From Bacteroidota bacterium (GTDB lineage Bacteria > Bacteroidota > Bacteroidia > Bacteroidales > FEN-979): DNA of 64,000 bases. Shown piece after piece: positions 3,689 through 60,259 of the stretch; the first letter of the stretch is position 1; each line of letters begins with the position of its first letter. A model generated the notes under the pieces. It was given only the letters and a program-made list of their open reading frames with translations. It was not told the DNA's origin and made no database searches. The translations under genes were made by a program, and so were the position numbers. The stretch is from the NCBI GenBank assembly GCA_043810345.1, contig JBDROF010000006.1:6603-70602 (forward strand). Reading direction: 5' to 3'.

Positions 3689-3696
3689 TATATTTG
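3689..3696 (+). promoter_or_regulatory. Bacteroidota-type -7 promoter box (Fic gene)
   Basis: TATATTTG, 53 nt before the ATG at 3749. Confidence 0.4.
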
Positions 3697-13015: not shown

Positions 13016-13492
13016 ATTTCCATAAATTATATTCTTGTCTTATCTCTTCCAAAACGATAAGTCTACTCACCAATGGCTGTGACTGCCAAAATAAAAAATC
13101 ATTTCCTTGTTCAGAGATTTTACCTCTATGAACTACCGTTTTATCAATCATAGCTTCAGTCTGGGATTAATTTGTATGTCAACGTTACCACATCCATCAT
13201 GATGTTTTTCCTTCCGCTAAAGTAACATTTTTTTCAATACTTTTCAAGGTTCCACTTGCTAAAACCTTACAGACATCGTTCTTTTCCAGACATACCCCAA
13301 CTTATTCAACTCGATTTTTCTATTGATCGGGTGTACCAGTAAAAGGTAATACGTCAAGCTCAATTTTTTTTTACCGCAGAGGCAGCAGAGGAAACACAGA
13401 GGTCCTTCGTCCCACGTCATTTTGTCAGCCTGCCCTGCTTGGCACCCTCTTTGTCAATCCCACGGCAACGAATAACCAAAAACTGAACAACT

Positions 13493-48395: not shown

Positions 48396-48412
48396 TGTCA
48401 AAAAAACGTACA
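48396..48412. promoter_or_regulatory. second, imperfect activator site
   Basis: TGTC-AAAAAAACG-TACA (TGTC-N9-TACA). Its centre is 21 bp from the perfect site. Confidence 0.45.
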
Positions 48413-48415
48413 CTA

Positions 48416-48434
48416 GTGTCAAAATATTTGACAC
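48416..48434. promoter_or_regulatory. palindromic upstream activator site (putative EBP binding site)
   Basis: GTGTCAAA-ATA-TTTGACAC has perfect 8-bp arms. The reverse-complement copy lies at 60164-60182. Confidence 0.6.
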
Positions 48435-48454
48435 CTTTAGGTGCTTCCTAAAGG
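48434..48454 (+). terminator. hairpin after the BatA-like gene
   Basis: CCTTTAGG-tgctt-CCTAAAGG, an 8-bp stem 39 nt after the stop, followed by A/T-rich sequence. It lies between the activator sites and the -24/-12 element. Confidence 0.35.
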
Positions 48455-48497
48455 GAAATTATTTTATATCTATCTGTTATACAGATATTTATAATTT

Positions 48498-48513
48498 TGG
48501 TACAATATTTGCA
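48498..48513 (+). promoter_or_regulatory. sigma-54 (-24/-12) promoter of the RiPP operon
   Basis: TGGTAC-aatat-TTGCA compared with the consensus TGGCAC-N5-TTGCW. GG-to-GC spacing is exact, and the precursor ATG is 58 nt downstream. Confidence 0.7.
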
Positions 48514-48570
48514 GTATGGCTAAGTCCATAAGGAAGCAAATAAAAAATATCAATATTAAATTCTAACGCC

Positions 48571-48780
48571 ATGAAAACGTTAAGCATCATCAACCTGCAC
48601 AAAGCCGAGATCAAGAAGAATCTGTTAGCAAAAATCAGAGGTGGAGAAGAAATTAAATGTTTTTGCACGGCGACTAATCCTTACGTCGTCATAAAAAAGC
48701 AGGGCGGTAGCACCAAGCTTTGCTATTGTGATGAAGTAACCACCAGCACTGCAGGCGTTTACAGCAGCACACCGGATTAA
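48571..48780 (+). CDS. RiPP precursor peptide, double-glycine leader, Cys-rich core (GG-Bacteroidales-type)
   Basis: 69 aa. The 25-aa leader MKTLSIINLHKAEIKKNLLAKIRGG is followed by a 44-aa core with CFC and CYC motifs. It sits immediately upstream of the rSAM maturase and downstream of a -24/-12 promoter. Confidence 0.8.
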   Translation: MKTLSIINLHKAEIKKNLLAKIRGGEEIKCFCTATNPYVVIKKQGGSTKLCYCDEVTTSTAGVYSSTPD

Positions 48781-48847
48781 TTCCTAAAAGTGTTACCTTT
48801 GCCACTACCCGAAATGGGCAGGTGTGTAACATGATGTCCAAAGACTG

Positions 48848-50362
48848 ATGAAAAATGCGGTTTTCTTTACATCAGGCAAAGGTAACTGTTATCTGTACAG
48901 CCCGTACAGAAACCAGCTCCGGCTTTGTCATCCTCTGATTCATCACTTTTTTTCTCTCGAAAAAAAAGGCACGAACCTCGGCCGGTGGATCACAACCATT
49001 CAGAAAAATAGAAATCTTACCATTCAGGGAATGGGGACATTCTCCCACTCAGAAGTCAATTATCAGCTGGAAAAATACCGGTTCCTGAAACGAAATGGGT
49101 TCCTGAAACAGGCCAGGGATATCAACATTGAAGGAAGGCTGAAGGCCTCCGATGTGAAGAAAAATATAACCTCCGTCAAGCAGCTCATTTTTGAAGTGAC
49201 GGAAGATTGCAACCTAAACTGCACCTACTGCACCTACAGCAAATATTACATCAACAAAGAGAGACACAACAGCTATTTGTCATTCGGAAATGTCCGGCAT
49301 ACGTTAACGGAGCTGATCTCCAAACGCACCACCTCCCCATCAAACCACCTCATCGTCAGTTTCTACGGAGGCGAACCACTGAAAAATTTCGAACTCATCA
49401 AATCGGTGGTGGAATTTACCGGCAGCTATCCGAAAGATCAGATCTCCTTTACCTACTCCCTCTCCAGCAATGGTCTTTTATTGAAAAAATACATCGCTTT
49501 TCTGGTCGAACATGCCTTTGAGCTCTCCGTTAGCCTCGATGGAGATGAAATAGCCAATTCGTTCCGGGTAACGAAGAACAATAAACCATCGTTTGACATG
49601 GTAACCAAAAACCTCGACTACGTCAGGACACACTATCCCGAATATTTCGAAAAAAACATCAGTTTCCTGACCGTGTTGCATAACCGGAACTCGATCAAAT
49701 CCGTGTTCGAATTCTTCCAGGAACGGTATGGAAAGGTGCCGCAAATGTCGGATGTCAATCCAATCAATCTTAACCCATTGCACGAAAGAGAGTTCCGGGA
49801 GAAGTTGCGATCAAAACCGATCACACCGCAGGAAGAGAAAGAGACCATCAAACAGATGGAGAACAGGCATCCGAAGGTCAGGGAGCTGGCCAAGGTCCTG
49901 GAATATTACTCTGGTTTCGTGTTTAAGAACTACCTGGAGATGATCTCTCCAAAACGGGGAAAGGTCTCTTCCAAAAAGTATATACCAACGGCCACCTGTA
50001 CCCCCTTCTCCATCCGGGCCTATTTTTCGGCCGACGGTACCGTTCTTCCCTGTGAGCATATCAGTCCGTTTTATGGGATCGGCTCCTATTCCGACCACCG
50101 TCTATCCCTTGATCCCGCAGGTATGGCCAGCCTCTACAACAACTATTACGATAAGATCTCCCGGTACTGCAGAAAATGTTATTTCATCGATAACTGCCAG
50201 GAATGTCTCTTCAATACCGGGGTGGAGACAGACCATCCATCCTGCTCATTCTACACCACAGAGACCGGATTCAAGGAGTACCTGAAGAAGCATTACTCCA
50301 ACATTGAGAACGATTATAAGTTTTACCGGAAAACCGCTCAAACCACTTTCTATGAAGGATAA
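48848..50362 (+). CDS. radical SAM/SPASM peptide maturase
   Basis: CNLNCTYC (CX3CX2C) within EVTEDCNLNCTYCTYSKYY. The C-terminal auxiliary-cluster motifs are CTPFSIRAYFSADGTVLPC and CRKCYFIDNCQEC. Confidence 0.9.
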   Translation: MKNAVFFTSGKGNCYLYSPYRNQLRLCHPLIHHFFSLEKKGTNLGRWITTIQKNRNLTIQGMGTFSHSEVNYQLEKYRFLKRNGFLKQARDINIEGRLKASDVKKNITSVKQLIFEVTEDCNLNCTYCTYSKYYINKERHNSYLSFGNVRHTLTELISKRTTSPSNHLIVSFYGGEPLKNFELIKSVVEFTGSYPKDQISFTYSLSSNGLLLKKYIAFLVEHAFELSVSLDGDEIANSFRVTKNNKPSFDMVTKNLDYVRTHYPEYFEKNISFLTVLHNRNSIKSVFEFFQERYGKVPQMSDVNPINLNPLHEREFREKLRSKPITPQEEKETIKQMENRHPKVRELAKVLEYYSGFVFKNYLEMISPKRGKVSSKKYIPTATCTPFSIRAYFSADGTVLPCEHISPFYGIGSYSDHRLSLDPAGMASLYNNYYDKISRYCRKCYFIDNCQECLFNTGVETDHPSCSFYTTETGFKEYLKKHYSNIENDYKFYRKTAQTTFYEG

Positions 50363-51632
50363 TCCTCCATGGCTGTTTCTGGAACCTTATGTACATATGC
50401 TTCACCGGGAGGGAGCCCTTCTTCTATACAATACCATCAGTAAAACCGTGTTGGAGTTCAGCAACTCCCGGGAGCTATCCAAACTTGCAGACGAACTGCT
50501 GGACCCTGACAATGGATATGTGGTCCCCCTGTCTGCCAGTCAGCTTCAGGATCCAGAAGTCCAGGATTTCCTCCACCAGGTCAGGCAACACTTCATGGGA
50601 GATCTCCTCGATCCCTCCTGGTCGGAGTGCAAACCGGTCAACATTGTTCCTGAGCCCTTTGTCAAGCATGGTCTCAGGCCTGTTCCCATACAGAAATCCC
50701 CCCTGAAACCCGGCCTGGAGGTCCGCAATTATTTACAGGAACTCACCCTCTTTTTGAATGCCGGAACCGAACCATCATCCGGTCCATCCGCCAGCGCATA
50801 CCTTCAGTTCTCATACCCCTCCTTAGTTTCAGATAAAGAGGAACAGATGGAGCTTCCCCTCTTCCGTGCGATGATCGATGATGTCAATCTTTATACGCCA
50901 ACGCTGATCCACATCTCCGGTATGAACCTGCTTGCCTATCCCCATTTGGAAGAGGTGATCAGAAAACTGGCATCCAGCCCTTTTCAAAAGAAATATCACC
51001 TCCTTATCGATCACTGGGAGGAACGGATCATCCCTTTTATCCTGGCTCAGAAACAGACTACCCTCGCCCTCTACATCACGTTCCCCTCCCATCCGGAACC
51101 CATCGCCGGGTATCTGCAGAGCCTCCCGGCTCGGAAACTCCTGAAGAGACTGGAGTTCAACTTATTGGTCAGCAACCAGGAGGAGCTGCAGATGGCGCAG
51201 GAAACCGTCAGGATGCTCGACCTTACCAACGTCTATTTCAAGCCTGTCTATAACGGGGAAAATCTTGATTTCTTCAGGCAGCATGTGTTTGTTTCCAGGG
51301 AGGAGATTCTGGCTTCACAACCAGATCAACGGGAGGTGTTCTCCAGGATCTCGATCAACGAAAACGATTTCGGAAAACTCTCTGTTTTCCCCGCAGGGGA
51401 AGCCTATGCCAATTTGAATGATCCCATGATCGGAGAGGCGACAAAGAGCTCCCTGGTTCAGCTGGTCACCCAGGAACTGGACAGGGGAATCAGCTGGCGA
51501 CGAACCCGCGCCGGCGTCACTCCTTGCAACGGGTGTCTCTATCAGTTCCTGTGTCCTCCCATCAGCTCCTATGAGATTTTTCTGAAGCGGTTTAATTTCT
51601 GCGATGTCCATCCAAACGGGAAAGAGTCATGA
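50352..51632 (+). CDS. pseudo-radical-SAM partner protein (no CX3CX2C; SPASM-like C-terminus)
   Basis: The ATG overlaps the maturase by 11 nt. Length and layout resemble the maturase, but the Cys triad position reads ELTLFLNAGTEPSS. C-terminal PCNGCLYQFLCPP...FNFC. Confidence 0.75.
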   Translation: MKDNPPWLFLEPYVHMLHREGALLLYNTISKTVLEFSNSRELSKLADELLDPDNGYVVPLSASQLQDPEVQDFLHQVRQHFMGDLLDPSWSECKPVNIVPEPFVKHGLRPVPIQKSPLKPGLEVRNYLQELTLFLNAGTEPSSGPSASAYLQFSYPSLVSDKEEQMELPLFRAMIDDVNLYTPTLIHISGMNLLAYPHLEEVIRKLASSPFQKKYHLLIDHWEERIIPFILAQKQTTLALYITFPSHPEPIAGYLQSLPARKLLKRLEFNLLVSNQEELQMAQETVRMLDLTNVYFKPVYNGENLDFFRQHVFVSREEILASQPDQREVFSRISINENDFGKLSVFPAGEAYANLNDPMIGEATKSSLVQLVTQELDRGISWRRTRAGVTPCNGCLYQFLCPPISSYEIFLKRFNFCDVHPNGKES

Positions 51633-54016
51633 ACTGGAACTCATTGGTAACCTCTTACCGATTCATGATGAAGAGTAGAATCTTCACCGCCATCAACCTG
51701 ATCGGGCTGACGGCCGGGTTGACGGTCTCCTTTTTCCTGCTGATCTACATCATCAATGAATTAAGTTACAACTCCTTTCATGCCAGAAGCGACCGGATCT
51801 ACCGCATCATCACGCAAACCGAAAAGAATACCATCCCCTTGTCCCCTTCCCTTCTTCCGGCCAGGCTTCAGGAGCAATCCGAGGGTATTTTACAGGCAGG
51901 TGGCATGGTTGAAGTCCAATTCTTAACGGGTCCGGTAAGGGTTAAAAAAGGGCAAAATTACCACGAGGAACCTGGATTTTTCTGTGCCGATCCGGCGGTT
52001 CTGGATATCCTCAGCTTCAACATTGCCGGCGGTGAAGGAGGTGCAGGATTACACAAGGCAGGATCCGTCATGCTTTCACGACCTGTTGCCCTGAAATATT
52101 TTGACCAGGCGGATCCAATCGGGCAGAAGTTGGAGATTAAATCCGGTGGAGTCCCCGTTTCCTTAACCGTTTCCGGTATTTTTGAAAAGCTGCCCTGGAA
52201 CTCCACCATGGAAGTTGACTTTATTGCCGGGATGGATCTTTTCCATTTCCTGCTGAATGAGTTTGGCATTGACCTGGAAACAGAGACGGTGAATTATGCG
52301 GATTTTTATGCAGAAAACTATATTCTGGTTGACCGTCGTGGGAGAATACCTGAACTGATGGATCAGCTCCCATCGCTTCTGGATACCCTGGGACTCACCG
52401 CGCGGAAGATTGCTTTTTCTTTTCAGAACATCCAGGACATTCATCTCGATTCGGAGGAGATTACAAACGATTTCCACCAGAAGGGAACCCGGTCGGCTCT
52501 CTTCTATTATGGCTCACTGGCCTTTGCCATCTTACTGCTTGCCGGCATCAACTACTCTATCCTCAGTACCGCCCGTTCGGCCTTGCGATTTAAGGAGATC
52601 GGGGTCAGGAAGGTCCTGGGAGCTACCAAACGGGAATTACGGATTCAGGTACTCGCCGAATCGATGTTGCTGACCTTTTTGGCCCTGCCCCTCGCTTTTC
52701 TGGTGCTGGGGTTCATTGAGCCCTTTGCCGACCGGTTATATGGGTATGAGATCCAGCTATACACCTGGAACATGCTGATTTACATTCCCCTCTTCGCTGT
52801 CATCACCCTGCTTATCGGATTGACCTCCGGAGGCTATCTTGCCTTTTACCTTTCGGCCCTGAATCCATTGAAAGCTATTAAAAACCAGGTATTTACACGT
52901 CAGCGCTTCAGCCTGAGCAAAGGGTTCATTGTGCTTCAACTGCTGATCACCCTGTTCCTGCTGGGGTGTGTGCTGATCATCTTTGCCCAGCTCGATTATT
53001 GCCTGAATACAAACAGTGGCATACAGAAGAGAGAGCTGTTGATCGTTTCATTCGATCCGGCAGAGTTTCATTTCTACCCCGAGCTTCGTGACCGGATTCA
53101 GGAAGAAGAGGCCGTCGTGTCTGTCTCGGGCAGTTCCATCATTCCTCCCACCAACGCCAGTTCGTTCATCTCGTTTACCATCTCATCCCCCGGTTCATTG
53201 TCAGAAACAGTCCTACTGGAGAATTATTATGTGGACAGAGACTTTTTCACCACCCTTGGTATCGGGATGGTATCAGGTGAAGATATCAGACCGGCAGGGG
53301 GTACCCAATCCGAAGTACCCGTTATTCTCAACCAGGAGGCCAAAGCGCTGCTGGGTCTCGAGCAACCGGTGGGGACCTCTCTTGGTAAAAGCATCGTCAC
53401 GGGAGTGGTCAGGGATTTCAACATCCACTCTTTTCATTCGAAAATTTTACCGGCAGTATTCACCTACAATCCCTCCGAGTGCAGTTACCTGGTGGTCAGA
53501 TGCCAGCCGGGAGCTTTAAAAAAGGCACGTCAACTAGTAGAGAAACACTGGCTTGCGCTGGCACCTGATCTTCCGTTTGCCAGTGCCACATTCGATGATG
53601 AACTGAATCTGATGTACTCCACGGAGCAGAAATTTGGTCAGGTGGTAGCCTCCTTCTCCTTTCTGGCCTTCATCATCACGGGGATGGGTCTTTTTGGTCT
53701 TGCCCTCCTGATGATCGAGCGCCGGTTGAAAGAGATTGCCGTCAGGAAGATCTTCGGCGCCTCGAACCACGACATCCTGTTCCGGGTGCAAAAAGAGTTT
53801 CTGCTGTATATCCTGCTGGCATCAGTGGTTGCCATCCCGGTAACCTGGTATATCATGAACAGCTGGTTATCTTCTTTCTACTATAAAGTTCCGGTACACT
53901 GGTACCTCTTTTTGATTGCCGTCCTGTCCATCACTATTTTTGTATCCTCGATCATCATGATCAGGACCTGGGCTGTTCTGCGTAAGAACCTGATCAACGT
54001 GTTGAGATATGAGTAG
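51629..54016 (+). CDS. ABC transporter permease, FtsX/MacB type (duplicated)
   Basis: 795 aa with a 4-nt overlap upstream. The N-terminal TM helix and periplasmic domain are repeated twice, with FtsX-like TM bundles (...RKVLGATKRELR..., ...RKIFGASNHDIL...). Confidence 0.85.
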   Translation: MNWNSLVTSYRFMMKSRIFTAINLIGLTAGLTVSFFLLIYIINELSYNSFHARSDRIYRIITQTEKNTIPLSPSLLPARLQEQSEGILQAGGMVEVQFLTGPVRVKKGQNYHEEPGFFCADPAVLDILSFNIAGGEGGAGLHKAGSVMLSRPVALKYFDQADPIGQKLEIKSGGVPVSLTVSGIFEKLPWNSTMEVDFIAGMDLFHFLLNEFGIDLETETVNYADFYAENYILVDRRGRIPELMDQLPSLLDTLGLTARKIAFSFQNIQDIHLDSEEITNDFHQKGTRSALFYYGSLAFAILLLAGINYSILSTARSALRFKEIGVRKVLGATKRELRIQVLAESMLLTFLALPLAFLVLGFIEPFADRLYGYEIQLYTWNMLIYIPLFAVITLLIGLTSGGYLAFYLSALNPLKAIKNQVFTRQRFSLSKGFIVLQLLITLFLLGCVLIIFAQLDYCLNTNSGIQKRELLIVSFDPAEFHFYPELRDRIQEEEAVVSVSGSSIIPPTNASSFISFTISSPGSLSETVLLENYYVDRDFFTTLGIGMVSGEDIRPAGGTQSEVPVILNQEAKALLGLEQPVGTSLGKSIVTGVVRDFNIHSFHSKILPAVFTYNPSECSYLVVRCQPGALKKARQLVEKHWLALAPDLPFASATFDDELNLMYSTEQKFGQVVASFSFLAFIITGMGLFGLALLMIERRLKEIAVRKIFGASNHDILFRVQKEFLLYILLASVVAIPVTWYIMNSWLSSFYYKVPVHWYLFLIAVLSITIFVSSIIMIRTWAVLRKNLINVLRYE

Positions 54017-56213
54017 GTTCCCATTTTCACGGCAACTCGATTCCATGGATTGCGGTCCTGCCTGCCTCCAGATGGTCGCCCGTTTTCATGGGAAGAACTA
54101 CTCCCTCTCCACCCTCCGCGACCTCTGTCATATCACCCGCGATGGGGTCACCATGCTGGGGATCAGTGATGCTGCTGAAGCCACCGGATACCATACCCTC
54201 GGTGTAAAGATCAGTTTCGGCGAGCTCCTCGCGGAAGCTCCCCTCCCCTGCATCCTTCACTGGCAACAGAATCACTTCGTGGTGTTGTACCGGGTGAAAG
54301 AAAAGCATGGGAAGAAAAAGCTCTTCATCGCAGATCCGGCCATCGGGAGAGTGAAATACAGTGAGGAGGAGTTTTTGAAAAGATGGCTCTCGGAGGTGAA
54401 ACCGGAGGAAGAACAGAAAGGGATATGCCTGCTTCTGGAACCCACGGAAGCGTTTCATTCAAAGAGGGATGAAGAGACCGGGATGTCGCGCCTCCGGTTC
54501 ATCTTCAGCTACCTGAAACCCCACCGGAAACTCTTCTCACAGCTGGTGCTGGGCATGCTGCTCGGAAGCCTCTTCATGCTGATCTTCCCCTTCCTCACAC
54601 AGTCGATCATCGATGTGGGGATCCAGAACCAGGACCTGAGCTTCATCTTCCTGGTACTGCTGGCCATGATGGCTCTCTTTCTCGGCCAGATCTCAGTGGA
54701 GTTCATCCGGGGGTGGATCCTCCTGCACATCAGTACCCGGATCAACATCTCATTGATCTCCGACTTCCTGATCAAGATCATGAGGCTGCCCATCGGTTTC
54801 TTTGACACCAAACGAACCGGCGACCTGATCCAGCGCATTCTCGACCACGACCGGATACAGTCCTTTCTCACTGTCAGTTCACTCAGCATTCTCTTTTCCA
54901 TCGTGAACTTCATCATCTTCGGACTGGTTCTCCTGGCTTACAACTCCACAATCTTTCTGGTTTTTATAGCGGGCAGCATGCTCTATGGCCTCTGGGTTTA
55001 CCTGTTCATGAACCGCAGGAAAGAGCTCGATTACGCCCGTTTCTCCTACATGGCTGAAAATCAGGGGAACCTCTTTCAACTGGTAACCGCCATGCAGGAG
55101 ATCAAACTGAACAATTGTGAAAGGGAGAAACGATGGGATTGGGAACGGATCCAGGCCAAACTCTTCCGGGTGAGTTTAAGGAGCCTCTCCCTGACACAGT
55201 ACCAGAATGTGGGAGCCCTGTTTTTCATTCGTACCAAAGACATTGTGATCATTTTCTTATCTGCCTCACTGGTATTGAAAGGGGAACTTACCCTGGGGAT
55301 GATGCTGGCTATCCAGTACATCCTCGGACAGGTCAACAACCCGGTGGAACAGATGGTCAACTTCATCCGGGAAGCACAGGATGCCACCATCAGCATGTCC
55401 CGTCTGGATGAGGTAAGCTCCCTGAAAGAGGAAGAGGGGCCGGACGACCATCTTGTGAAGAGCATCCCGCCGGATCATGGTATCCGCATCTGCCAGCTCT
55501 CTTTTCAGTACGAGGGACCTCATTCCCCCTTCGTTTTGAAAGATCTGAATCTGGTCATCCCCGATCAGAAAATCACCGCCATTGTCGGGCCAAGCGGTAG
55601 CGGGAAGACCACGCTGATCAAGCTGATGCTGGGCTTCTATCCACCTGTAAGGGGAACGATCTCTGTGGGAGACCTGCCTCTGCAACACATCTCTCCGCAG
55701 TACTGGCGTACCCTTTGCGGTGCGGTCATGCAGGAGGGATTTATCTTTTCCGACTCCATTGCCAGCAACATTGCCATGAGCCTGGAACAGGTGGAGCCGG
55801 AAAAGTTTTCCCGGGCGATCAGGATCGCCAACCTGACTGAATTCGTAGATTCGCTGCCTACCGGCCTCCGGACCAAGATCGGATCCGAGGGACACGGGAT
55901 CAGCGAAGGGCAAAAACAACGGGTCCTGATCGCCCGGGCGGTCTATAAAGATCCTGAATTCATCTTCTTCGACGAAGCTACTAACTCCCTGGATGCCAAT
56001 AATGAGATGATGATCATCGAAAATCTGAAGGAATTTTTTGCCGGGAAAACGGTGGTGGTGGTAGCGCACCGGCTAAGCACAGTGAAAAATGCCGACCAGA
56101 TTGTAGTGCTCGATCAGGGCTGTATCCTGGAGCAGGGCACTCACCACGAGCTCACCAGTCTCCGTGGGGCTTATTATGAATTGGTTAAAAATCAACTTGA
56201 ACTTGGATATTAA
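54009..56213 (+). CDS. peptidase C39 domain-containing ABC exporter (double-glycine leader cleavage/export)
   Basis: QLDSMDCGPACLQMV (catalytic Cys), HWQQNHFVVLY (His), 6-TM ABC domain, Walker A GPSGSGKTT, signature SEGQKQR, and Walker B IFFDEAT. Confidence 0.9.
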   Translation: MSRFPFSRQLDSMDCGPACLQMVARFHGKNYSLSTLRDLCHITRDGVTMLGISDAAEATGYHTLGVKISFGELLAEAPLPCILHWQQNHFVVLYRVKEKHGKKKLFIADPAIGRVKYSEEEFLKRWLSEVKPEEEQKGICLLLEPTEAFHSKRDEETGMSRLRFIFSYLKPHRKLFSQLVLGMLLGSLFMLIFPFLTQSIIDVGIQNQDLSFIFLVLLAMMALFLGQISVEFIRGWILLHISTRINISLISDFLIKIMRLPIGFFDTKRTGDLIQRILDHDRIQSFLTVSSLSILFSIVNFIIFGLVLLAYNSTIFLVFIAGSMLYGLWVYLFMNRRKELDYARFSYMAENQGNLFQLVTAMQEIKLNNCEREKRWDWERIQAKLFRVSLRSLSLTQYQNVGALFFIRTKDIVIIFLSASLVLKGELTLGMMLAIQYILGQVNNPVEQMVNFIREAQDATISMSRLDEVSSLKEEEGPDDHLVKSIPPDHGIRICQLSFQYEGPHSPFVLKDLNLVIPDQKITAIVGPSGSGKTTLIKLMLGFYPPVRGTISVGDLPLQHISPQYWRTLCGAVMQEGFIFSDSIASNIAMSLEQVEPEKFSRAIRIANLTEFVDSLPTGLRTKIGSEGHGISEGQKQRVLIARAVYKDPEFIFFDEATNSLDANNEMMIIENLKEFFAGKTVVVVAHRLSTVKNADQIVVLDQGCILEQGTHHELTSLRGAYYELVKNQLELGY

Positions 56214-56214
56214 C

Positions 56215-56718
56215 ATGACCCAACAACCAACCGATCAGGAAAAATACAGCCGGGAAGTGGAAGAGATATTGCACAAACGACCTGCCTTGCTGGTTCGCAA
56301 GGGAATCCTCCTGCTCACCATCCTTGTCATCCTCCTCCTGGTGGGTTCCCATTTCATTAAGTACCCCGAGAAACTGACTGCCTCGGTCACGTTCGACACC
56401 GTTGCCGTCCACGATTCGATCCTCCTTCAGGGCCGGATCATCCTGACCTCGGCAGCGGCCTCCATCGTGAAGCCGGGACAACCGGTTGTGATGCTCCTGC
56501 GTACGACTCCAGAAAGCACGCCCGTTGACGTAACCGGAACCATAGAAGCCCTGCTTCCTATGGGCCGGGGCGACTATTACACTGTGCTGGTTCAGCCCGA
56601 TACCCAGACTGAGCTTTTAGGGCATGAAGGTACGGCCAGCATTTTGATAGGTGAAACAAATCTGCTGACCCAAATATTAAATCCGGTTTTTGCAGTATTC
56701 CGATCTGCTGACCAATAG
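56215..56718 (+). CDS. truncated HlyD-family adaptor-like protein (167 aa)
   Basis: The N-terminus SREVEEILHKRPALLVRKGILLLTILVILLLVGSHFIKYPEKLTASV matches the HlyD-type anchor. The C-terminal beta-domain-like part is present, but there is no room for the coiled-coil hairpin. Confidence 0.55.
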   Translation: MTQQPTDQEKYSREVEEILHKRPALLVRKGILLLTILVILLLVGSHFIKYPEKLTASVTFDTVAVHDSILLQGRIILTSAAASIVKPGQPVVMLLRTTPESTPVDVTGTIEALLPMGRGDYYTVLVQPDTQTELLGHEGTASILIGETNLLTQILNPVFAVFRSADQ

Positions 56719-56730
56719 AGGAAGAACGTT

Positions 56731-57402
56731 ATGATAATAATCAAAGAATTGACGAAAGTGTTCCAGGCGGAGGATGTCCAGACGATGGCCCTGAACCAGG
56801 TGGATTTTGAGGTCGCGGAAGGCGAGTTCGTAGCGATCATGGGCCCGTCAGGATGTGGAAAATCTACCCTGCTCAACATCATAGGGATGTTGGACGAGCC
56901 CAACAGCGGCCAATATGAATTCCTGAACCATAACATCTTCGAGCTGCCAGAAAAAGAGCGAACCGCCATACGGAAAAAGAACATCGGTTTTGTTTTTCAG
57001 AATTTCAACCTGATCGACGAATTGACCATATTCGAGAATGTTGAGCTGCCACTGATCTACCTGGGAGTACCTGCACCCGAACGCAAAGTGAAGGTGATTG
57101 AAATGCTGGAAGAACTGGAGATGGCTCACCGGAAAAAATATTTCCCCATGCAACTTTCGGGAGGGCAGCAGCAACGGATTGCTGTGGCCCGGGCGCTGGT
57201 TGTGAACCCCGCTCTCCTGCTCGCAGATGAACCCACGGGTAACCTCGACTCCCTCCATGGAGATGAGGTGATGAACCTCTTCATCAAGCTCAATGATGCC
57301 GGTACCACCATTGTGATGGTAACCCACTCGGCTCGGGATGCCGAATACAGCACACGCATCGTTAACCTGTTCGACGGGCAGATCGTATCGGAGAGGTATT
57401 AA
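56731..57402 (+). CDS. ABC transporter ATP-binding protein (MacB/LolD type)
   Basis: Walker A GPSGCGKST, LSGGQQQR, Walker B LLADEPTGNLD. Confidence 0.9.
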   Translation: MIIIKELTKVFQAEDVQTMALNQVDFEVAEGEFVAIMGPSGCGKSTLLNIIGMLDEPNSGQYEFLNHNIFELPEKERTAIRKKNIGFVFQNFNLIDELTIFENVELPLIYLGVPAPERKVKVIEMLEELEMAHRKKYFPMQLSGGQQQRIAVARALVVNPALLLADEPTGNLDSLHGDEVMNLFIKLNDAGTTIVMVTHSARDAEYSTRIVNLFDGQIVSERY

Positions 57403-58748
57403 ATCCTGATCGTAAACACCGTATTTCCTGGCGACGACTGCACCGTCATGCTGCCGCCGTGGAGCCTGATGATCTGGCGGGAGAGGCTGAGGCCTATGCC
57501 TGAACCCGACTGTTTGGTGGTGAAGAAAGGAACAAAGATATCATCTATCAACTCCGGGGGAATCCCGTTCCCGTTATCGGAGACCTGGATTATCAGTTGA
57601 TCCTGTGCCGAGTGTGCAGCCAGTTCTACCACCGGGGATTCTGCCTCGTCAAGGGCCTCTGATGCATTTTTAACGAGATTGATCAGTACCTGCTCCAGCA
57701 ACGAGCCATCGGCATTGATAAAAATGGAAGGATGGCAGTTGATCCGGAGGTCAATTCCACCGACTGCAAGTTGAGATTCGAAGAGGTGTAATACCCGTTG
57801 CAGAAGGTCCTTGACATTGACAATCTTGAAGTCGGGTTTAGGTAAACGGGTAATGCTGCGGTAGTTCTGCACGAAACTGATCAACCCTTTCCCACGGGAA
57901 TCAATCAGGTCCAGCCCTTTTACTGTCCGGGCCATTATATCATGGGTGACCTCAGCAGGCTCTATCAACTCCGGTTTGTCTCTGCGCCGGAGTTTCTTCA
58001 CGATGCTTCCTACCAGGGTGACGATCGGAGTCATTGAATTCATGATCTCATGGGTCAATACCCGGATCAGACGTTGCCACGATTCGATCTCCTTCTCTTC
58101 CAATTCAGGCTTGATATTCTGAAAAGAGACCAGGTGCAACTCTTCATTCATCGTCCGGAACTTGACCTTTTTGGTAGCCAGCTGGATCAGCTCACCTTCC
58201 AGGATCAGGGAGATCAGTTTCCGGTCGTTCGATGCCAGGTTGATCAGCATCTCGCTGAATCCATCCTTGATGTTGTTCAACTTCCTGAGGTTTCGCAATA
58301 CCTGCATCCCAAATATCTTTTTGGCTGCCTCGTTGAAGAGTTCCACCGAACCATCTGCCTTGAACGAAATCAATCCGACAGCCGTTTCGTCGACGATGGT
58401 TTTGAAGTAGTTGTTCTGTATCTCATTTTTCAGTCTCGCCTGCTCCAGTTTGTCGTTGATCAGGTCGAAATACATATAGAGCGGACTGAATTCATCCTTT
58501 TTGTTCCGGCGCACATTGGATGAGGTAACCTCACCACTGAGGTAAAAGAGAAAAAAGTTCTCGAGCTTCTTGTTGATGGAGTTCAGGTACCGGGTAAGCA
58601 TGACCACCTGGTAAATGAAGAGGGCTCCGAGGGCTATGATGACGGAATAGTTAGGATGGATAAAGAAAGAAAGGCACAGCAGGAAACAGGACAGTGAGAT
58701 AAGTACCAAACGGATGATCAGATGATAGAAATACCTTTTAGAGACCAT
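57399..58748 (-). CDS. membrane sensor histidine kinase (NtrB/ZraS-like), partner of the sigma-54 regulator
   Basis: Two N-terminal TM helices, a PAS-like region, H-box LTHEIMNSMTPI, then NLVKNASEA, DNGNGIP and GSGIGLSLSRQI. Confidence 0.85.
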   Translation of the reverse strand: MVSKRYFYHLIIRLVLISLSCFLLCLSFFIHPNYSVIIALGALFIYQVVMLTRYLNSINKKLENFFLFYLSGEVTSSNVRRNKKDEFSPLYMYFDLINDKLEQARLKNEIQNNYFKTIVDETAVGLISFKADGSVELFNEAAKKIFGMQVLRNLRKLNNIKDGFSEMLINLASNDRKLISLILEGELIQLATKKVKFRTMNEELHLVSFQNIKPELEEKEIESWQRLIRVLTHEIMNSMTPIVTLVGSIVKKLRRRDKPELIEPAEVTHDIMARTVKGLDLIDSRGKGLISFVQNYRSITRLPKPDFKIVNVKDLLQRVLHLFESQLAVGGIDLRINCHPSIFINADGSLLEQVLINLVKNASEALDEAESPVVELAAHSAQDQLIIQVSDNGNGIPPELIDDIFVPFFTTKQSGSGIGLSLSRQIIRLHGGSMTVQSSPGNTVFTIRI

Positions 58749-60120
58749 ACCGTTTCATTTTGTTATAAATGGTCTGCCTCGAGATACCCAGTTCCCGGGC
58801 AGCACTGGTCATGTTACCCATGTGCCGGAGGAGTGCTTTCCGTATGATCTCCTTTTCAAAATCACCGTAGGATCCGTTCATTTCGGCTGGTTGCATCGGT
58901 TGCCCGGGCATTTTCTTCAGGTAAAGGTCCTCCGGCCTCACTGTATTCCCTTCAGCCAGGATGACCGCCTTCTCAATGGAGTGCTCCAGCTCACGAATAT
59001 TTCCGGGCCAAACATAGGTTCTCATGGCCATCAGGGCATCCTTGGAAAATGCCAGTTTACCCCGGTCGTATTTGGCAGTGCACCGGTGCAGAAAATGGTT
59101 AGCCATCAGCTCGATATCACTTCCCCTTTCACGCAATGGGGGAAGATCGATCTGAATGGTATTGATCCGGAAGAGAAGATCCTGCCGGAACAATCCTTCC
59201 ATTACCAGTTTGTCGAGGTTTTTATTTGTGGCACAGATCAGGCGGATGTCGATGGGAATAATTTTATTGGATCCCAGCGGAATGATTTGCCGTTCCTGCA
59301 GAACGTTCATGACCTTCGCCTGCATATTCAAAGAAAAATTTCCAATCTCATCCAGGAAGAGGGTTCCTCCGGAGGCGGTTTCAAAGCGACCGATCCGGTC
59401 CTGCTTGGCATCAGTAAATGCCCCTTTCTTGTGGCCGAACATCTCACTTTCAAAGAGTGTCAGAGGAATGGAGGCCATATCAACGGTGATCATCGCTTCA
59501 TTTGAGCGGGATGAGCGTTTATGGATCTCCCTGGCAATCAACCCCTTGCCGGTCCCATTCTCTCCTGTGATCAGGATATTGACATCGGTTTTACTTACCT
59601 TCTCCACGATCTCCATCACCCGGCTCATCTGGGGGCACTGAACGATGATCTCGGAATACTGCTGATCCAGTTCGGCGGTCAGCTGATCCTGCCGGTTGCG
59701 GAGTTTCTCGATCTCCTTGGTCGACTCCCGGAGCTTTAAGGCTGTACGCAATGTTGCCAGGAGTTTATCATTATCCCATGGCTTGATGATGAAATCAACG
59801 GCACCATTCTTCATGGCCTTCACAGCAAGCTCTACATCTCCGTAAGCTGTCATCATGATGACACTCAAAGAAGGATCCACCTTCAGGATCTCTTTCAACC
59901 AGTAAAGACCTTCGTTTCCCGTCACCACCCCCGCCGAGAAATTCATATCCAGCAAAACCAGGTCAAAGGATTCATTCTTCAGGGTGCTGACGATCATGTT
60001 TGGTGTCTTCAATCCGGTAACCAGGGAAAACTCATCTTCCAGAAACAACTCCAGCGCTTCCAGGATCTCTTTGTTATCTTCAACGATGAGCAGGTTTCCA
60101 TTTTTCGACATATGGTACAA
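58738..60120 (-). CDS. sigma-54-dependent response regulator (NtrC-family enhancer-binding protein)
   Basis: REC (LLIVEDNKEIL...LVLLDMNF), AAA+ domain with GENGTGKG and the sigma-54 contact loop GAFTDA, and a C-terminal Fis-type HTH AARELGISRQTIYNKMKRYG. The start may instead be the ATG at 60111. Confidence 0.9.
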   Translation of the reverse strand: MYHMSKNGNLLIVEDNKEILEALELFLEDEFSLVTGLKTPNMIVSTLKNESFDLVLLDMNFSAGVVTGNEGLYWLKEILKVDPSLSVIMMTAYGDVELAVKAMKNGAVDFIIKPWDNDKLLATLRTALKLRESTKEIEKLRNRQDQLTAELDQQYSEIIVQCPQMSRVMEIVEKVSKTDVNILITGENGTGKGLIAREIHKRSSRSNEAMITVDMASIPLTLFESEMFGHKKGAFTDAKQDRIGRFETASGGTLFLDEIGNFSLNMQAKVMNVLQERQIIPLGSNKIIPIDIRLICATNKNLDKLVMEGLFRQDLLFRINTIQIDLPPLRERGSDIELMANHFLHRCTAKYDRGKLAFSKDALMAMRTYVWPGNIRELEHSIEKAVILAEGNTVRPEDLYLKKMPGQPMQPAEMNGSYGDFEKEIIRKALLRHMGNMTSAARELGISRQTIYNKMKRYGL

Positions 60121-60142: not shown

Positions 60143-60159
60143 TGTCCAAATTTAATACA
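60143..60159. promoter_or_regulatory. second, imperfect activator site (copy 2)
   Basis: TGTC-CAAATTTAA-TACA. Its centre is 22 bp from the perfect site. Confidence 0.45.
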
Positions 60160-60163
60160 ATTA

Positions 60164-60182
60164 TTGTCAAATATTTTGACAC
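60164..60182. promoter_or_regulatory. palindromic upstream activator site (copy 2)
   Basis: TTGTCAAA-TAT-TTTGACAC, in the divergent intergenic region between the EBP gene and the hybrid kinase gene. Confidence 0.6.
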
Positions 60183-60243
60183 TTTTAAAACTTTTTTTTT
60201 ACCCTTCGTAAATAACATATTGATTATCAATAAAATAATTTTA

Positions 60244-60259
60244 TGGCCTGATTTTTGCT
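60244..60259 (+). promoter_or_regulatory. sigma-54 (-24/-12)-like promoter upstream of the hybrid kinase gene
   Basis: TGGCCT-gattt-TTGCT with exact GG-to-GC spacing, about 100 nt upstream of the ATG at 60362. Confidence 0.5.

What the first reader, a model, noticed from the sequence alone, without database searches (positions are those of the whole stretch)
48396..48513. Complete enhancer-plus-sigma-54 promoter architecture in front of the precursor gene
Readable in order:
- TGTC-AAAAAAACG-TACA (48396-48412).
- GTGTCAAA-ATA-TTTGACAC (48416-48434), with perfect 8-bp arms and its centre 21 bp from the first site, i.e. two helical turns.
- An 8-bp-stem hairpin (48434-48454).
- An A/T-rich spacer containing the palindrome TATCTGT-TAT-ACAGATA (48471-48487).
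- TGGTAC-N5-TTGCA (48498-48513), which has the exact -24 GG / -12 GC spacing of sigma-54 promoters.
- The precursor ATG, 58 nt later.

The centre of the perfect palindrome is about 75 bp upstream of the -24 GG. That is a normal distance for NtrC-type activators, and such an activator is encoded in the cluster. No TAnnTTTG housekeeping box is present here.
Basis: partly seen in the sequence, partly recalled or inferred. Interest (0 to 1): 0.7.

Follow-up and report, generated by a model that had tools for sequence, protein, structure and literature searches.

The report
Sigma-54 enhancer promoter driving peptide precursor
The DNA in front of a small antibiotic-like peptide gene in an uncultured Bacteroidales bacterium is very probably a sigma-54 promoter switched on from two upstream activator-binding sites, a layout kept in 33 related genomes, so it is a well-supported new example of a well-known kind of switch.

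Summary
The sigma-54 reading holds up under comparative analysis.

- **Promoter.** TGGTAC-N5-TTGCA (48498-48513) is the only exact TGGYAC-N5-TTGCW in the window. A TGGYAY-N5-TTG element sits at the same place before the precursor gene in all 33 related loci.
- **Enhancer sites.** The perfect palindrome TGTCAAA-N3-TTTGACA occurs twice in the window (none expected). One copy is here. The other (60165-60181) lies between the cluster's NtrC-type activator gene and a second -24/-12 element (60244-60259).
- **Phasing.** Sites follow TGT-N11-ACA, lie 21 bp apart, and sit at about 63, 74, 84, 95 or 105 bp from the -24 GG, which keeps them on one face of the helix.

Corrections:
- A TAnnTTTG box is present (48492-48499), but only 6 of 33 loci have one near this promoter.
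- The hairpin (48434-48454) is specific to this lineage.
- The palindrome 48471-48487 overlaps a real element at a fixed position.
- The radical SAM maturase gene has its own conserved TAnnTTTG box (48794-48801, 33 of 33 loci). Only the precursor therefore appears to be under sigma-54 control.

This is a new member of a known kind. Nothing has been tested experimentally.

The parts
48396..48412 (.). Distal activator site at the precursor promoter (P1): TGTCAAAAAAACGTACA, an imperfect TGT-N11-ACA. Its centre is 95 bp from the -24 GG.
   Evidence: Sequence. Conserved in 6 close orthologs. Belongs to the quantised distance series 63/74/84/95/105.
48416..48434 (.). Proximal activator site at P1: GTGTCAAA-ATA-TTTGACAC, a perfect palindrome. 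Its centre (48425) is 74 bp from the -24 GG.
   Evidence: 2 exact copies in the window, 0 expected. 18 of its 19 positions are invariant in 7 orthologs.
48434..48454 (+). Stem-loop with an 8-bp stem. It is specific to this lineage and is probably the terminator of the upstream BatA-like gene, or incidental. It is not a conserved part of the promoter.
   Evidence: -11.4 kcal/mol and z = -2.7 here; no comparable fold in 5 orthologs.
48467..48487 (+). A/T-rich element at a fixed position, TAT-N5-yTGATwT.CA. It is a candidate site for a DNA-bending protein (inferred).
   Evidence: Profile of 33 loci anchored on the TGG: TA at -31/-30 and TG at -23/-22 carry the most information outside the -24/-12 element. 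The same element occurs at the second promoter.
48492..48499 (+). TAATTTTG, an exact Bacteroidota housekeeping -7 box (TAnnTTTG) overlapping the -24 element. Judged non-functional or incidental.
   Evidence: A TAnnTTTG box lies near P1 in only 6 of 33 loci, at varying positions.
48498..48513 (+). Sigma-54 -24/-12 element TGGTAC-AATAT-TTGCA. The predicted transcription start is near 48524 (inferred).
   Evidence: An equivalent element is present in 33 of 33 loci.
48571..48780 (+). Precursor peptide gene (69 aa). It has a double-glycine leader (...KIRGG) and a Cys-rich core.
   Evidence: Homologous precursors follow the promoter in the related loci.
48794..48801 (+). TACCTTTG, a conserved housekeeping -7 box 47 nt before the maturase ATG. 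It points to a separate promoter for the maturation and export genes.
   Evidence: An exact TAnnTTTG lies 42-50 nt upstream of the maturase start in 33 of 33 loci, with the two middle bases variable.
48848..57402 (+). Maturation and export genes:
- radical SAM maturase, 48848-50362
- pseudo-radical-SAM protein, 50304-51632
- FtsX/MacB-type permease, 51629-54016
- C39 peptidase ABC exporter, 54009-56213
- unknown single-pass membrane protein, 56164-56718
- ABC ATPase, 56731-57402
   Evidence: TIGR04148 scores 370.7 bits against a cutoff of 300; TIGR04150 scores 312.3 against 250. for the membrane protein.
57399..58748 (-). Sensor histidine kinase. It has two N-terminal membrane helices with almost no external loop, and it is co-transcribed with the activator gene.
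58738..60111 (-). NtrC-type enhancer-binding response regulator: receiver domain, AAA+ sigma-54 interaction domain with a GAFTDA loop, and HTH_8. The likely start is the ATG at 60111, not the TTG at 60120.
   Evidence: Orthologs at 62-96% identity occur in every related locus that extends far enough.
60143..60159 (.). Distal site at the second promoter (P2): TGTCCAAATTTAATACA, 94 bp from the P2 GG. On the minus strand it contains TAAATTTG (60154-60147), the likely housekeeping -7 box of the activator gene.
60165..60181 (.). Proximal site at P2: TGTCAAATATTTTGACA, a perfect palindrome whose centre is 72 bp from the P2 GG.
60244..60259 (+). Second -24/-12 element, TGGCCT-GATTT-TTGCT, pointing at the hybrid histidine kinase gene (60362-62416). 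An ATTGATTATCAA element precedes it at the same fixed offset as at P1.
   Evidence: An equivalent element is present in the related loci.

Best explanation
The segment 48396-48513 is a sigma-54-dependent promoter (P1) for the precursor gene of a radical-SAM-modified, double-glycine-leader peptide.

Proposed mechanism:
1. RNA polymerase carrying sigma-54 binds TGGTAC-N5-TTGCA as a closed complex.
2. The NtrC-type response regulator encoded 10 kb downstream (58738-60111) is phosphorylated by its partner kinase (57399-58748).
3. It binds as dimers to two TGT-N11-ACA sites centred 74 and 95 bp upstream of the -24 GG. Both sites face the same side of the helix.
4. It oligomerises, loops the DNA, and opens the promoter by ATP hydrolysis. 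An A/T-rich element at a fixed position near -50 probably helps the looping.

Wider circuit:
- The same regulator serves a second module of identical design (sites at 60143-60181, promoter at 60244-60259) that drives a hybrid kinase gene.
- Its sites overlap the housekeeping -7 box of its own gene, which suggests negative autoregulation.
- The maturase and export genes have their own housekeeping promoter (48794-48801). The regulated step is therefore supply of the precursor.

Shown here: the motifs, their statistics, their conservation and phasing, and their co-occurrence with the regulator gene.
Inferred: sigma-54 dependence, binding by this particular regulator, the transcription start, looping, autoregulation and the inducing signal.
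For: **Promoter**
- One exact promoter consensus occurs in the window against 0.08 expected.
- The GG and the TTG of the -24/-12 element are kept in 33 of 33 loci, while the flanks diverge. The background rate is 0.067 per 900 nt.
- As an internal control, the same loci keep a TAnnTTTG box before the maturase gene in 33 of 33 cases, but near P1 in only 6 of 33.

**Enhancer sites**
- The palindrome occurs twice exactly against 0 expected, and the second copy sits in front of the regulator gene.
- Only two tandem TGT-N11-ACA pairs occur in the window, at P1 and P2.
- Site-to-GG distances are quantised at 63/64, 73/74, 84, 94/95 and 105 at P1, and at 63, 72/73, 84, 94/95, 105 and 114 at P2. This is integral helical turns, kept even though the number of sites differs between loci.

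**Regulator**
- It has Sigma54_activat at E = 1.5e-63 plus HTH_8. Its best solved relatives are full-length NtrC-family proteins.
- Its GAFTDA loop is a variant reported as compatible with activation (PMC4641369).
- The regulator ortholog is present in every locus of the clade whose contig reaches that far, and absent from loci with maturase identity below 38%. Those distant loci show no promoter enrichment: 3 of 47 have a hit, no more than background.
- The site variant tracks the recognition helix: RQTIYNK goes with TGTC/GACA-containing sites, RPT[ML]YKK with TGTAAA only, and RPTMYRK with TGTAAC.

**Sigma-54 use in this group**
- It is documented in Bacteroidota (PMC12316311).
- A second canonical element precedes htpG in this window.
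Against: - There are no expression or binding data of any kind.
- rpoN is not in the window, and its presence in this genome could not be checked.
- An exact housekeeping -7 box (TAATTTTG, 48492-48499) overlaps the -24 element in this particular genome, so some sigma-A transcription here cannot be excluded.
- Eight of 33 loci have TTGT or TTGA instead of TTGC at -12, which departs from the classical consensus.
- The link between recognition helix and site variant is confounded by clade structure.
- The same composite motif occurs in metagenomes upstream of FtsX-type ABC permease genes with no regulator nearby. A paralogous regulator with the same specificity could therefore act here.
- The regulator has GAFTDA rather than GAFTGA. 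One paper leaves the effect of this change open (PMC10714721).
Confidence: 0.8

Rival explanations
1. The -24/-12 promoter is real, but the TGT-N11-ACA sites are bound by a different protein. This could be a paralogous enhancer-binding protein encoded elsewhere, or a repressor. The regulator in the cluster would then control something else.
For: - The composite palindrome-plus-promoter motif is found in metagenomes upstream of FtsX/MacB-type permease arrays and TolC-like genes, mostly with no regulator gene within the fetched DNA. The site type is therefore not unique to this cluster.
- The link between recognition helix and site variant follows clades and could reflect shared ancestry.
Against: - The regulator gene co-occurs with the sites in every locus that is long enough.
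- The sites lie directly in front of the regulator's own gene.
- The site variant changes together with the regulator's recognition helix at both promoters of the same genome.
- Helical phasing with the -24 element is what an activator acting on sigma-54 needs, not what a repressor needs.
Confidence: 0.12
2. P1 is an ordinary Bacteroidota housekeeping promoter that uses the -7 box TAATTTTG (48492-48499). The palindromes are operators for a classical activator or repressor, and the GG-N10-GC match is coincidental.
For: - An exact TAnnTTTG is present.
- The motif is enriched in the window (45 found, 28.6 expected), so this organism uses that promoter type.
- The sigma-70-type scan also finds a weak hit at 48478-48506.
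Against: - The TA of the box is lost in 5 of the 6 close orthologs. A TAnnTTTG lies near P1 in only 6 of 33 loci, whereas the TGG and TTG of the sigma-54 element are kept in 33 of 33.
- The same loci do keep a TAnnTTTG box where a housekeeping promoter is expected, before the maturase gene (33 of 33). The contrast is therefore meaningful.
- No TTTG -33 element lies at a suitable distance.
Confidence: 0.05
3. The palindrome and the adjacent hairpin mainly act as the transcription terminator or 3'-end structure of the upstream BatA-like gene (stop codon at 48393-48395) and have no role in precursor expression.
For: The terminator scan flags 48434-48454 followed by a T-rich tail. The stem is stable, at -11.4 kcal/mol with z = -2.7.
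Against: - The hairpin is absent from five orthologs, while the palindromes beside it are invariant.
- The identical palindrome recurs at 60165-60181, where no gene ends.
- A terminator role for the hairpin is compatible with the main explanation and does not compete with it.
Confidence: 0.03

Closest known systems
NtrC-activated glnAp2 promoter of enteric bacteria (established knowledge, recalled from memory)
   Same: - A two-component response regulator with receiver, AAA+ and Fis-type HTH domains.
- 17-bp inverted-repeat sites in tandem on one helical face, upstream of a TGGCAC-N5-TTGCA promoter.
- Regulator sites that overlap housekeeping promoters of the regulatory operon, as NtrC does at glnAp1 and glnLp. 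Here this is the -7 box at 60154-60147.
   Different: - The half-site sequence is TGTCAAA, not TGCACC.
- The sites lie closer to the promoter (about -100 and -120 from the start) than the NtrC sites at -108 and -140.
- The target is a peptide natural-product precursor, not a nitrogen assimilation gene.
- The regulator scores below the NtrC equivalog cutoff (353 bits against 558.6).
NifA upstream activator sequence TGT-N10-ACA (established knowledge, recalled from memory)
   Same: A TGT...ACA core palindrome with an A/T-rich interior, about 80-150 bp upstream of a -24/-12 promoter. In many nif promoters an IHF site lies in between.
   Different: - The spacer is N11, not N10, in every site catalogued here.
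- The regulator is a phosphorylation-controlled response regulator, not a GAF-domain NifA (NifA model 304.7 bits against a cutoff of 528.85).
PrsK/PrsR (PEP-CTERM-box response regulator, TIGR02915)
   Same: It is the best-scoring NCBIfam model for the regulator (409.2 bits). It is a kinase plus enhancer-binding protein pair associated with genes for small secreted or processed proteins.
   Different: The score is below the curated cutoff (502.6), so this regulator is not a member. There is no PEP-CTERM or exosortase context; the targets here are a double-glycine-leader peptide and a hybrid kinase.
Predicted sigma-54 promoters before FtsX-type (COG0577) ABC permease genes in Bacteroidia (PMC12316311)
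   Same: The metagenome scan with the composite motif found the same palindrome-plus-promoter module in front of FtsX/MacB-type permease and ABC ATPase genes. The cluster here also encodes such a permease and ATPase.
   Different: In the window the module precedes the precursor gene, not the permease. The permease lies downstream of the separate housekeeping promoter. That paper does not describe the enhancer sites or any peptide precursor target.
Peptide-controlled two-component circuits of Gram-positive bacteriocins (NisRK autoinduction; BceRS-BceAB flux sensing), as functional analogues only (established knowledge, recalled from memory)
   Same: A kinase and regulator pair is encoded in a modified-peptide cluster and controls the structural-gene promoter. 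The kinase has two membrane helices and almost no external loop, and sits next to an FtsX-type ABC transporter, as in Bce modules.
   Different: Those systems use OmpR- or LytTR-type regulators and sigma-A promoters. Here the regulator is an AAA+ enhancer-binding protein acting on sigma-54. Sensing of the peptide is pure conjecture here.

Membership tests
Sigma-54-dependent (-24/-12) promoter | GG and GC doublets exactly 10 nt apart, within TGGCAC-N5-TTGCW | tested here: met
   TGGTAC-AATAT-TTGCA at 48498-48513 has one mismatch to TGGCAC-N5-TTGCA. It is the only exact TGGYAC-N5-TTGCW in the window, against 0.08 expected.
Sigma-54-dependent (-24/-12) promoter | The element is conserved at the same position in orthologous loci while the flanks diverge | tested here: met
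   33 of 33 loci carry [TC]GG[CT]A[CT]-N5-TTG, usually 45-70 nt before the precursor ATG. In 25 the -12 is TTGC and in 8 it is TTGT or TTGA. Background is 0.067 per 900 nt.
Sigma-54-dependent (-24/-12) promoter | A cognate enhancer-binding protein with an AAA+ sigma-54 interaction domain and a GAFTGA loop | tested here: met
   Sigma54_activat scores E = 1.5e-63. The loop is the variant GAFTDA, listed among variants that keep activation (PMC4641369).
Sigma-54-dependent (-24/-12) promoter | rpoN is present in the genome | not testable with these tools
   None of the window ORFs scanned against Pfam is sigma-54; the remaining ORFs of at least 150 aa were not scanned and are much shorter than a typical sigma-54. 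Indirect support comes from a second canonical element before htpG and published sigma-54 use in Bacteroidota (PMC12316311).
Sigma-54-dependent (-24/-12) promoter | Transcription starts about 12 nt after the GC and depends on rpoN and on the enhancer-binding protein | not testable with these tools
   No transcript data exist for this uncultured organism.
Enhancer (UAS) of an NtrC-type response regulator | Inverted-repeat sites well upstream of the -24 element, in tandem and on one helical face | tested here: met
   Sites are 21 bp apart. Their centres lie 74 and 95 bp from the GG here, and at 63/74/84/95/105 bp across the loci.
Enhancer (UAS) of an NtrC-type response regulator | The regulator carries a C-terminal Fis-type helix-turn-helix, and the site variant tracks it | tested here: inconclusive
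   HTH_8 is present. Recognition-helix variants match site variants perfectly across 23 regulators, but the groups coincide with clades.
Enhancer (UAS) of an NtrC-type response regulator | Physical binding of the regulator to the sites | not testable with these tools
   This needs EMSA or footprinting.
Enhancer (UAS) of an NtrC-type response regulator | An IHF-type bending site between the enhancer and the promoter (common, not obligatory) | tested here: inconclusive
   A conserved fixed-position element TAT-N5-yTGATw resembles the reversed IHF consensus YAANNNNTTGATW with one or two deviations. No HU or IHF gene is in the window. The binding protein is unknown.
Bacteroidota housekeeping promoter (-7 TAnnTTTG), considered for P1 | A TAnnTTTG box is present | tested here: met
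   TAATTTTG at 48492-48499.
Bacteroidota housekeeping promoter (-7 TAnnTTTG), considered for P1 | The box is conserved in orthologous loci | tested here: not met
   Only 6 of 33 loci have any TAnnTTTG within -60 to +70 of the TGG. This compares with 33 of 33 before the maturase gene.
TIGR04148/TIGR04149/TIGR04150 radical SAM peptide system of Bacteroidota (context of the promoter) | The maturase and the pseudo-radical-SAM partner score above curated cutoffs | tested here: met
   TIGR04148 scores 370.7 bits against 300, and TIGR04150 scores 312.3 against 250.
TIGR04148/TIGR04149/TIGR04150 radical SAM peptide system of Bacteroidota (context of the promoter) | The precursor matches a curated precursor model | tested here: not met
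   No NCBIfam or Pfam hit at E <= 0.01. The peptide nevertheless has a double-glycine leader and a Cys-rich core, and a C39 peptidase exporter is present.

The most novel reading that the evidence does not exclude
The module is the core of a peptide-autoinduced sigma-54 circuit. In this reading, the exported radical-SAM-modified peptide is sensed through the cluster's FtsX-type ABC transporter by the loop-less, two-helix kinase, in the manner of Bce-type flux sensing. The kinase phosphorylates the enhancer-binding protein, which turns on only the precursor gene while the maturation and export machinery is made constitutively from its own housekeeping promoter.

This would be a sigma-54-based quorum or bacteriocin-induction loop in Bacteroidota. 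The same enhancer type would be reused across the class for peptide-export ABC systems.
Probability: 0.2. Interest if true: 0.7.

Novelty: new member of a known kind. Interest (0 to 1): 0.45.

Why it matters
Regulation of ribosomal peptide natural products in Bacteroidota is essentially uncharted, and most such clusters are silent or come from uncultured organisms. This module offers several practical handles.

- **A defined switch.** It has a 17-bp site consensus (TGT-N11-ACA), strict helical phasing, a canonical -24/-12 element and a named regulator gene, all conserved across more than 30 genomes.
- **A way to activate the cluster.** A constitutively active regulator, or one lacking its receiver domain, could be tried in a heterologous host that has sigma-54.
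- **A design principle.** Only the precursor is under the tight, zero-background sigma-54 switch, while the enzymes and exporters have a housekeeping promoter.
- **Data on sigma-54 in this phylum.** It adds comparative evidence that Bacteroidota sigma-54 promoters tolerate TTGT or TTGA at -12, and that they carry a fixed-position element near -50 in a phylum where IHF-like bending factors are not characterised.

Tried and rejected
- **Housekeeping promoter at P1.** Rejected on conservation: 6 of 33 loci have a box near P1, against 33 of 33 before the maturase gene.
- **Hairpin 48434-48454 as part of the architecture.** Rejected: it is stable here but absent from five orthologs.
- **The TATCTGT-TAT-ACAGATA palindrome as a regulator site.** It is not conserved as a palindrome. 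Only a TAT-N5-yTGAT core at a fixed offset is conserved.
- **Canonical IHF site.** The match is only approximate.
- **RNAalifold on the precursor-maturase spacer.** It gave no consensus structure. Single-sequence folds do show a tendency to form a stem just after the -7 box (mean z = -2.0).
- **Sigma-54 control as a general feature of all TIGR04148 systems.** Rejected. Loci with maturase identity below 38% (Bacteroides, Prevotella, Alistipes, Clostridia and others) lack the regulator and show no promoter enrichment: 3 of 47 have a hit, no more than background.
- **Curated precursor family.** No hit.
- **Literature.** No paper was found linking these clusters, or any sactipeptide, ranthipeptide or lanthipeptide precursor, to a sigma-54 promoter.
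- **A run of identical metagenome hits.** Eight matches upstream of a 62-aa ORF (MDKYGINIRNAN..., with TGGCATCCGGMTTGAC) look unrelated to this system and were set aside.
Full report
**1. Observation**

- TGTC-AAAAAAACG-TACA at 48396-48412.
- GTGTCAAA-ATA-TTTGACAC at 48416-48434, with perfect 8-bp arms. The two site centres are 21 bp apart.
- An 8-bp-stem hairpin at 48434-48454.
- TATCTGT-TAT-ACAGATA at 48471-48487.
- TGGTAC-N5-TTGCA at 48498-48513.
- The ATG of a 69-aa ORF at 48571, which is 58 nt after the promoter element.

The palindrome centre lies 74 bp from the first G of the GG.

These motifs exceed chance:
- The exact pattern TGGYAC-N5-TTGCW occurs once in the window against 0.08 expected.
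- The exact TGTCAAA-N3-TTTGACA occurs twice against 0.00 expected.

One statement is wrong. TAATTTTG at 48492-48499 is an exact TAnnTTTG, the Bacteroidota housekeeping -7 box, and it overlaps the TGG.

**2. Gene context**

Downstream of the promoter lie:
- the precursor, MKTLSIINLHKAEIKKNLLAKIRGG followed by a Cys-rich core
- a radical SAM peptide maturase (TIGR04148, 370.7 bits against a cutoff of 300)
- a pseudo-radical-SAM protein (TIGR04150, 312.3 against 250)
- an FtsX/MacB-type permease
- a C39 peptidase ABC exporter
- a small membrane protein
- an ABC ATPase

Convergent with these, on the minus strand, are a histidine kinase (57399-58748) and an NtrC-type enhancer-binding response regulator (58738-60111). 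The regulator has a receiver domain, Sigma54_activat at E = 1.5e-63, and HTH_8. Its closest solved relatives are full-length NtrC-family proteins.

The regulator's sigma-54 contact loop reads GAFTDA. PMC4641369 lists this variant among those that retain activation. PMC10714721 leaves the effect of the G-to-D change open.

**3. A second copy of the module**

The second perfect palindrome (60165-60181) lies in the divergent region between the regulator gene and a hybrid kinase gene (60362-62416). This region repeats the design of the first module:
- An imperfect TGT-N11-ACA site (60143-60159) lies 22 bp from the perfect one.
- On the plus strand, TGGCCT-GATTT-TTGCT (60244-60259) has correct GG-N10-GC spacing.
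- The site centres are 94 and 72 bp from its GG, compared with 95 and 74 bp at the precursor promoter.

These are the only two tandem TGT-N11-ACA pairs spaced 20-23 bp in the 64 kb.

On the minus strand the distal site contains TAAATTTG (60154-60147), 36 nt before the regulator's ATG. The regulator gene thus appears to have a housekeeping promoter embedded in its own binding sites.

**4. Comparative evidence**

*Data set.* Homologs of the maturase form a graded series from 88% identity downward. A genome scan returned 80 loci. Of these, 32 have maturase identity of 40-88%, all from Bacteroidales or Prolixibacteraceae genome bins. Every one whose contig extends about 10 kb downstream encodes the regulator ortholog (62-96% identity) on the opposite strand. 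The remaining loci (<38% identity; Bacteroides, Prevotella, Alistipes, Clostridia and others) lack it.

*Footprinting.* In an alignment of the window with its six closest orthologs, three blocks stand out as invariant between the upstream stop codon and the precursor ATG: the distal site, the proximal palindrome (18 of 19 positions) and TTTGG.A...TTGCA.

*Promoter element.*
- All 33 loci carry [TC]GG[CT]A[CT]-N5-TTG at the same place, usually 45-70 nt before the precursor ATG.
- The background rate is 0.067 per 900 nt.
- The -12 element is TTGC in 25 loci and TTGT or TTGA in 8.
- Among the 47 distant loci, only 3 have any such element within 1.8 kb, which is no more than background.

*Site spacing.* Site centres fall at 63/64, 73/74, 84, 94/95 or 105 bp from the GG at the precursor promoter. 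They fall at 63, 72/73, 84, 94/95, 105 or 114 bp at the second promoter. These are whole numbers of helical turns. The pattern holds although the loci differ in the number of sites (one to three or four) and in which turn the proximal site occupies.

**5. Sigma-54 or housekeeping sigma?**

The same loci provide an internal control.
- An exact TAnnTTTG box, with its two middle bases varying, lies 42-50 nt before the maturase start in 33 of 33 loci. In the window it is TACCTTTG at 48794-48801.
- Near the precursor promoter a TAnnTTTG box is found in only 6 of 33 loci, at inconsistent positions.
- Among the six close orthologs, five have lost the TA.

These organisms therefore keep housekeeping boxes where they use them, and they do not keep one at P1. 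The window's TAATTTTG is best read as incidental, although a minor contribution in this one genome cannot be excluded.

The practical consequence is a split design. The precursor gene is behind the sigma-54 switch, and the maturation and export genes have their own housekeeping promoter.

**6. Other elements in the spacer**

*Hairpin.* The hairpin at 48434-48454 is stable (-11.4 kcal/mol, z = -2.7), but five orthologs have nothing comparable. It is specific to this lineage. It may be the terminator of the upstream BatA-like gene.

*Fixed-position element.* Anchoring all 33 sequences on the TGG reveals a conserved element, TAT-N5-yTGATwT.CA. TA at -31/-30 and TG at -23/-22 are its most informative positions. 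The second promoter carries it too, as ATTGATTATCAA at 60219-60230.

It lies near -50 relative to the predicted start, where bending-protein sites sit in many sigma-54 promoters. It resembles the reversed IHF consensus with one or two deviations. What binds it is unknown.

**7. Does the cluster's own regulator bind the sites?**

Evidence for:
- The regulator gene and the sites co-occur.
- The sites lie in front of the regulator's own gene.
- The recognition helix matches the site variant across 23 regulators: RQTIYNK with TGTC/GACA-containing sites, RPT[ML]YKK with TGTAAA-only sites, and RPTMYRK with TGTAAC sites.
- The same variant appears at both promoters of a genome.

Caveats:
- The helix and site groups coincide with clades.
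- A metagenome scan with the composite pattern gave 78 loci. About 20 are precursor promoters of this family. About 16 lie upstream of FtsX/MacB-type permease or ABC ATPase genes, often arrays of paralogs. Three lie upstream of TolC-like genes. Most have no regulator gene in the fetched DNA.

The enhancer type is therefore shared more widely in Bacteroidia. This fits the in-silico enrichment of sigma-54 promoters before COG0577 permeases reported in PMC12316311. It also leaves room for a paralogous regulator.

**8. Mechanism proposed**

1. Sigma-54 holoenzyme sits at 48498-48513.
2. The phosphorylated regulator binds the two phased sites and oligomerises.
3. It contacts the closed complex by looping, probably helped by the element near -50.
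4. It opens the promoter, with transcription starting near 48524 (inferred).

The same regulator would activate the hybrid kinase gene from the second promoter, and it probably represses its own housekeeping promoter.

The kinase has two N-terminal membrane helices with almost no external loop, and it sits beside an FtsX-type ABC system. This suggests sensing through the transporter, but that is conjecture.

**9. Comparison with known systems and novelty**

- This is a textbook sigma-54 and enhancer architecture, closest in logic to NtrC at glnAp2.
- The TGT...ACA core recalls the NifA site, but with an N11 spacer.
- The regulator scores below the cutoffs of all named equivalogs. PrsR is the best at 409 bits against 502.6.
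- Sigma-54 use in Bacteroidota is documented (PMC12316311).
- A second canonical element (TTGGCACCCTCTTTGTC, 13439-13455) precedes htpG in this window. HSP90 is one of the gene families that paper found enriched for such promoters in Bacteroidia.
- No paper was found that links this peptide family, or related radical SAM peptides, to sigma-54.

It is a new member of a known kind. The split-promoter design and the wide reuse of the enhancer type are its most notable features.

**10. Limits**

There are no transcript, binding or genetic data. The phylogenetic non-independence of the 33 loci inflates the simple counts. The divergence of the flanking sequence and the contrast with the maturase promoter make the conclusion robust nonetheless.

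Noticed in passing
window 13439-13455 (+), upstream of ORF 13493-15463: TTGGCAC-CCTCT-TTGTC, a second canonical -24/-12 element, lies about 38 nt before an HSP90/HtpG gene. PMC12316311 reports predicted sigma-54 promoters enriched before HSP90 genes in Bacteroidia. This is indirect evidence that the organism uses sigma-54.
   Followed up: partly
window 48794-48801 (+); the equivalent position in L001-L030, L032 and L037: An exact TAnnTTTG box lies 42-50 nt before the radical SAM maturase start in 33 of 33 loci, with the two middle bases variable. It points to an independent housekeeping promoter for the maturation and export genes, inside the precursor-maturase spacer.
   Followed up: yes
window 48801-48847 (+) and orthologous spacers: The 40-50 nt between that -7 box and the maturase ATG tends to fold into a stem-loop that starts right after TTTG (mean z = -2.0; 18 of 32 loci below -1.5). 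By eye, the stems differ in sequence between close orthologs (TACCC/GGGTA, GTGCC/GGCAC, GTATC/GGTAC). RNAalifold found no consensus. It could be a 5' stabiliser of the maturase mRNA or a 3' structure of the precursor mRNA.
   Followed up: partly
L082, L083, L089, L090, L093, L100, L111, L122, L125, L127, L134, L138, L148, L154, L155; also L098, L119, L140: In metagenomes, the same composite module (TGTCAAA-N3-TTTGACA, then 48-70 nt, then TGGYAY-N5-TTG) precedes FtsX/MacB-type ABC permease or ATPase genes, often arrays of paralogs, and TolC-like genes. The enhancer type is thus reused for export systems across Bacteroidia.
   Followed up: partly
L008, L010, L011, L012, L015, L016, L017, L021 (precursor promoters); several second promoters: The -12 element reads TTGT or TTGA instead of TTGC, while the -24 TGGCAY stays intact. 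This suggests a relaxed requirement at the -12 C in these Bacteroidales.
   Followed up: partly
window 60147-60154 (-), inside site 60143-60159; 16 of 23 related loci: The regulator gene's likely housekeeping -7 box (TAAATTTG) is embedded in, or abuts, a regulator-type binding site. This arrangement suggests negative autoregulation.
   Followed up: partly
window 57399-58748 (-), 51629-54016 (+) and 56731-57402 (+): The kinase has two N-terminal membrane helices with almost no external loop, and it lies next to an FtsX-type permease and an ABC ATPase. This is reminiscent of Bce-type modules, in which the transporter does the sensing.
   Followed up: no
whole window: TAnnTTTG is enriched (45 found, 28.6 expected; 0 of 100 shuffles reach 45). 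Many copies lie just upstream of ORF starts, for example at 3689, 16238, 18503, 30882, 43624 and 44937. This fits a Bacteroidota genome.
   Followed up: partly
L002 9421-10000: Two tandem precursor genes, with start codons about 230 nt apart, follow a single enhancer-plus-promoter module. L024 and L009 also have the promoter about 600 nt from the maturase gene, which suggests extra precursor copies there too.
   Followed up: no
L034 (Clostridia genome bin), about 750 nt upstream of its maturase gene: TGGCATCATTTTTGCT occurs in a distant locus that also encodes an enhancer-binding protein 38% identical to the window's regulator. This may be an independent case of sigma-54 control outside Bacteroidota.
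   Followed up: no
window 48530-48537 (+) and close orthologs: A conserved purine-rich motif (AAGGAAGC here, AGGGAAG in orthologs) lies about 7-14 nt after the predicted transcription start, in the precursor 5' leader. Its function is unknown.
   Followed up: no
window 46212-48395 (+) and the precursor-promoter loci: A BatA/VWA-domain gene ends immediately upstream of the enhancer in most related loci (38-80% identity). The cluster therefore occupies a conserved chromosomal position, which argues for vertical inheritance rather than recent transfer.
   Followed up: no
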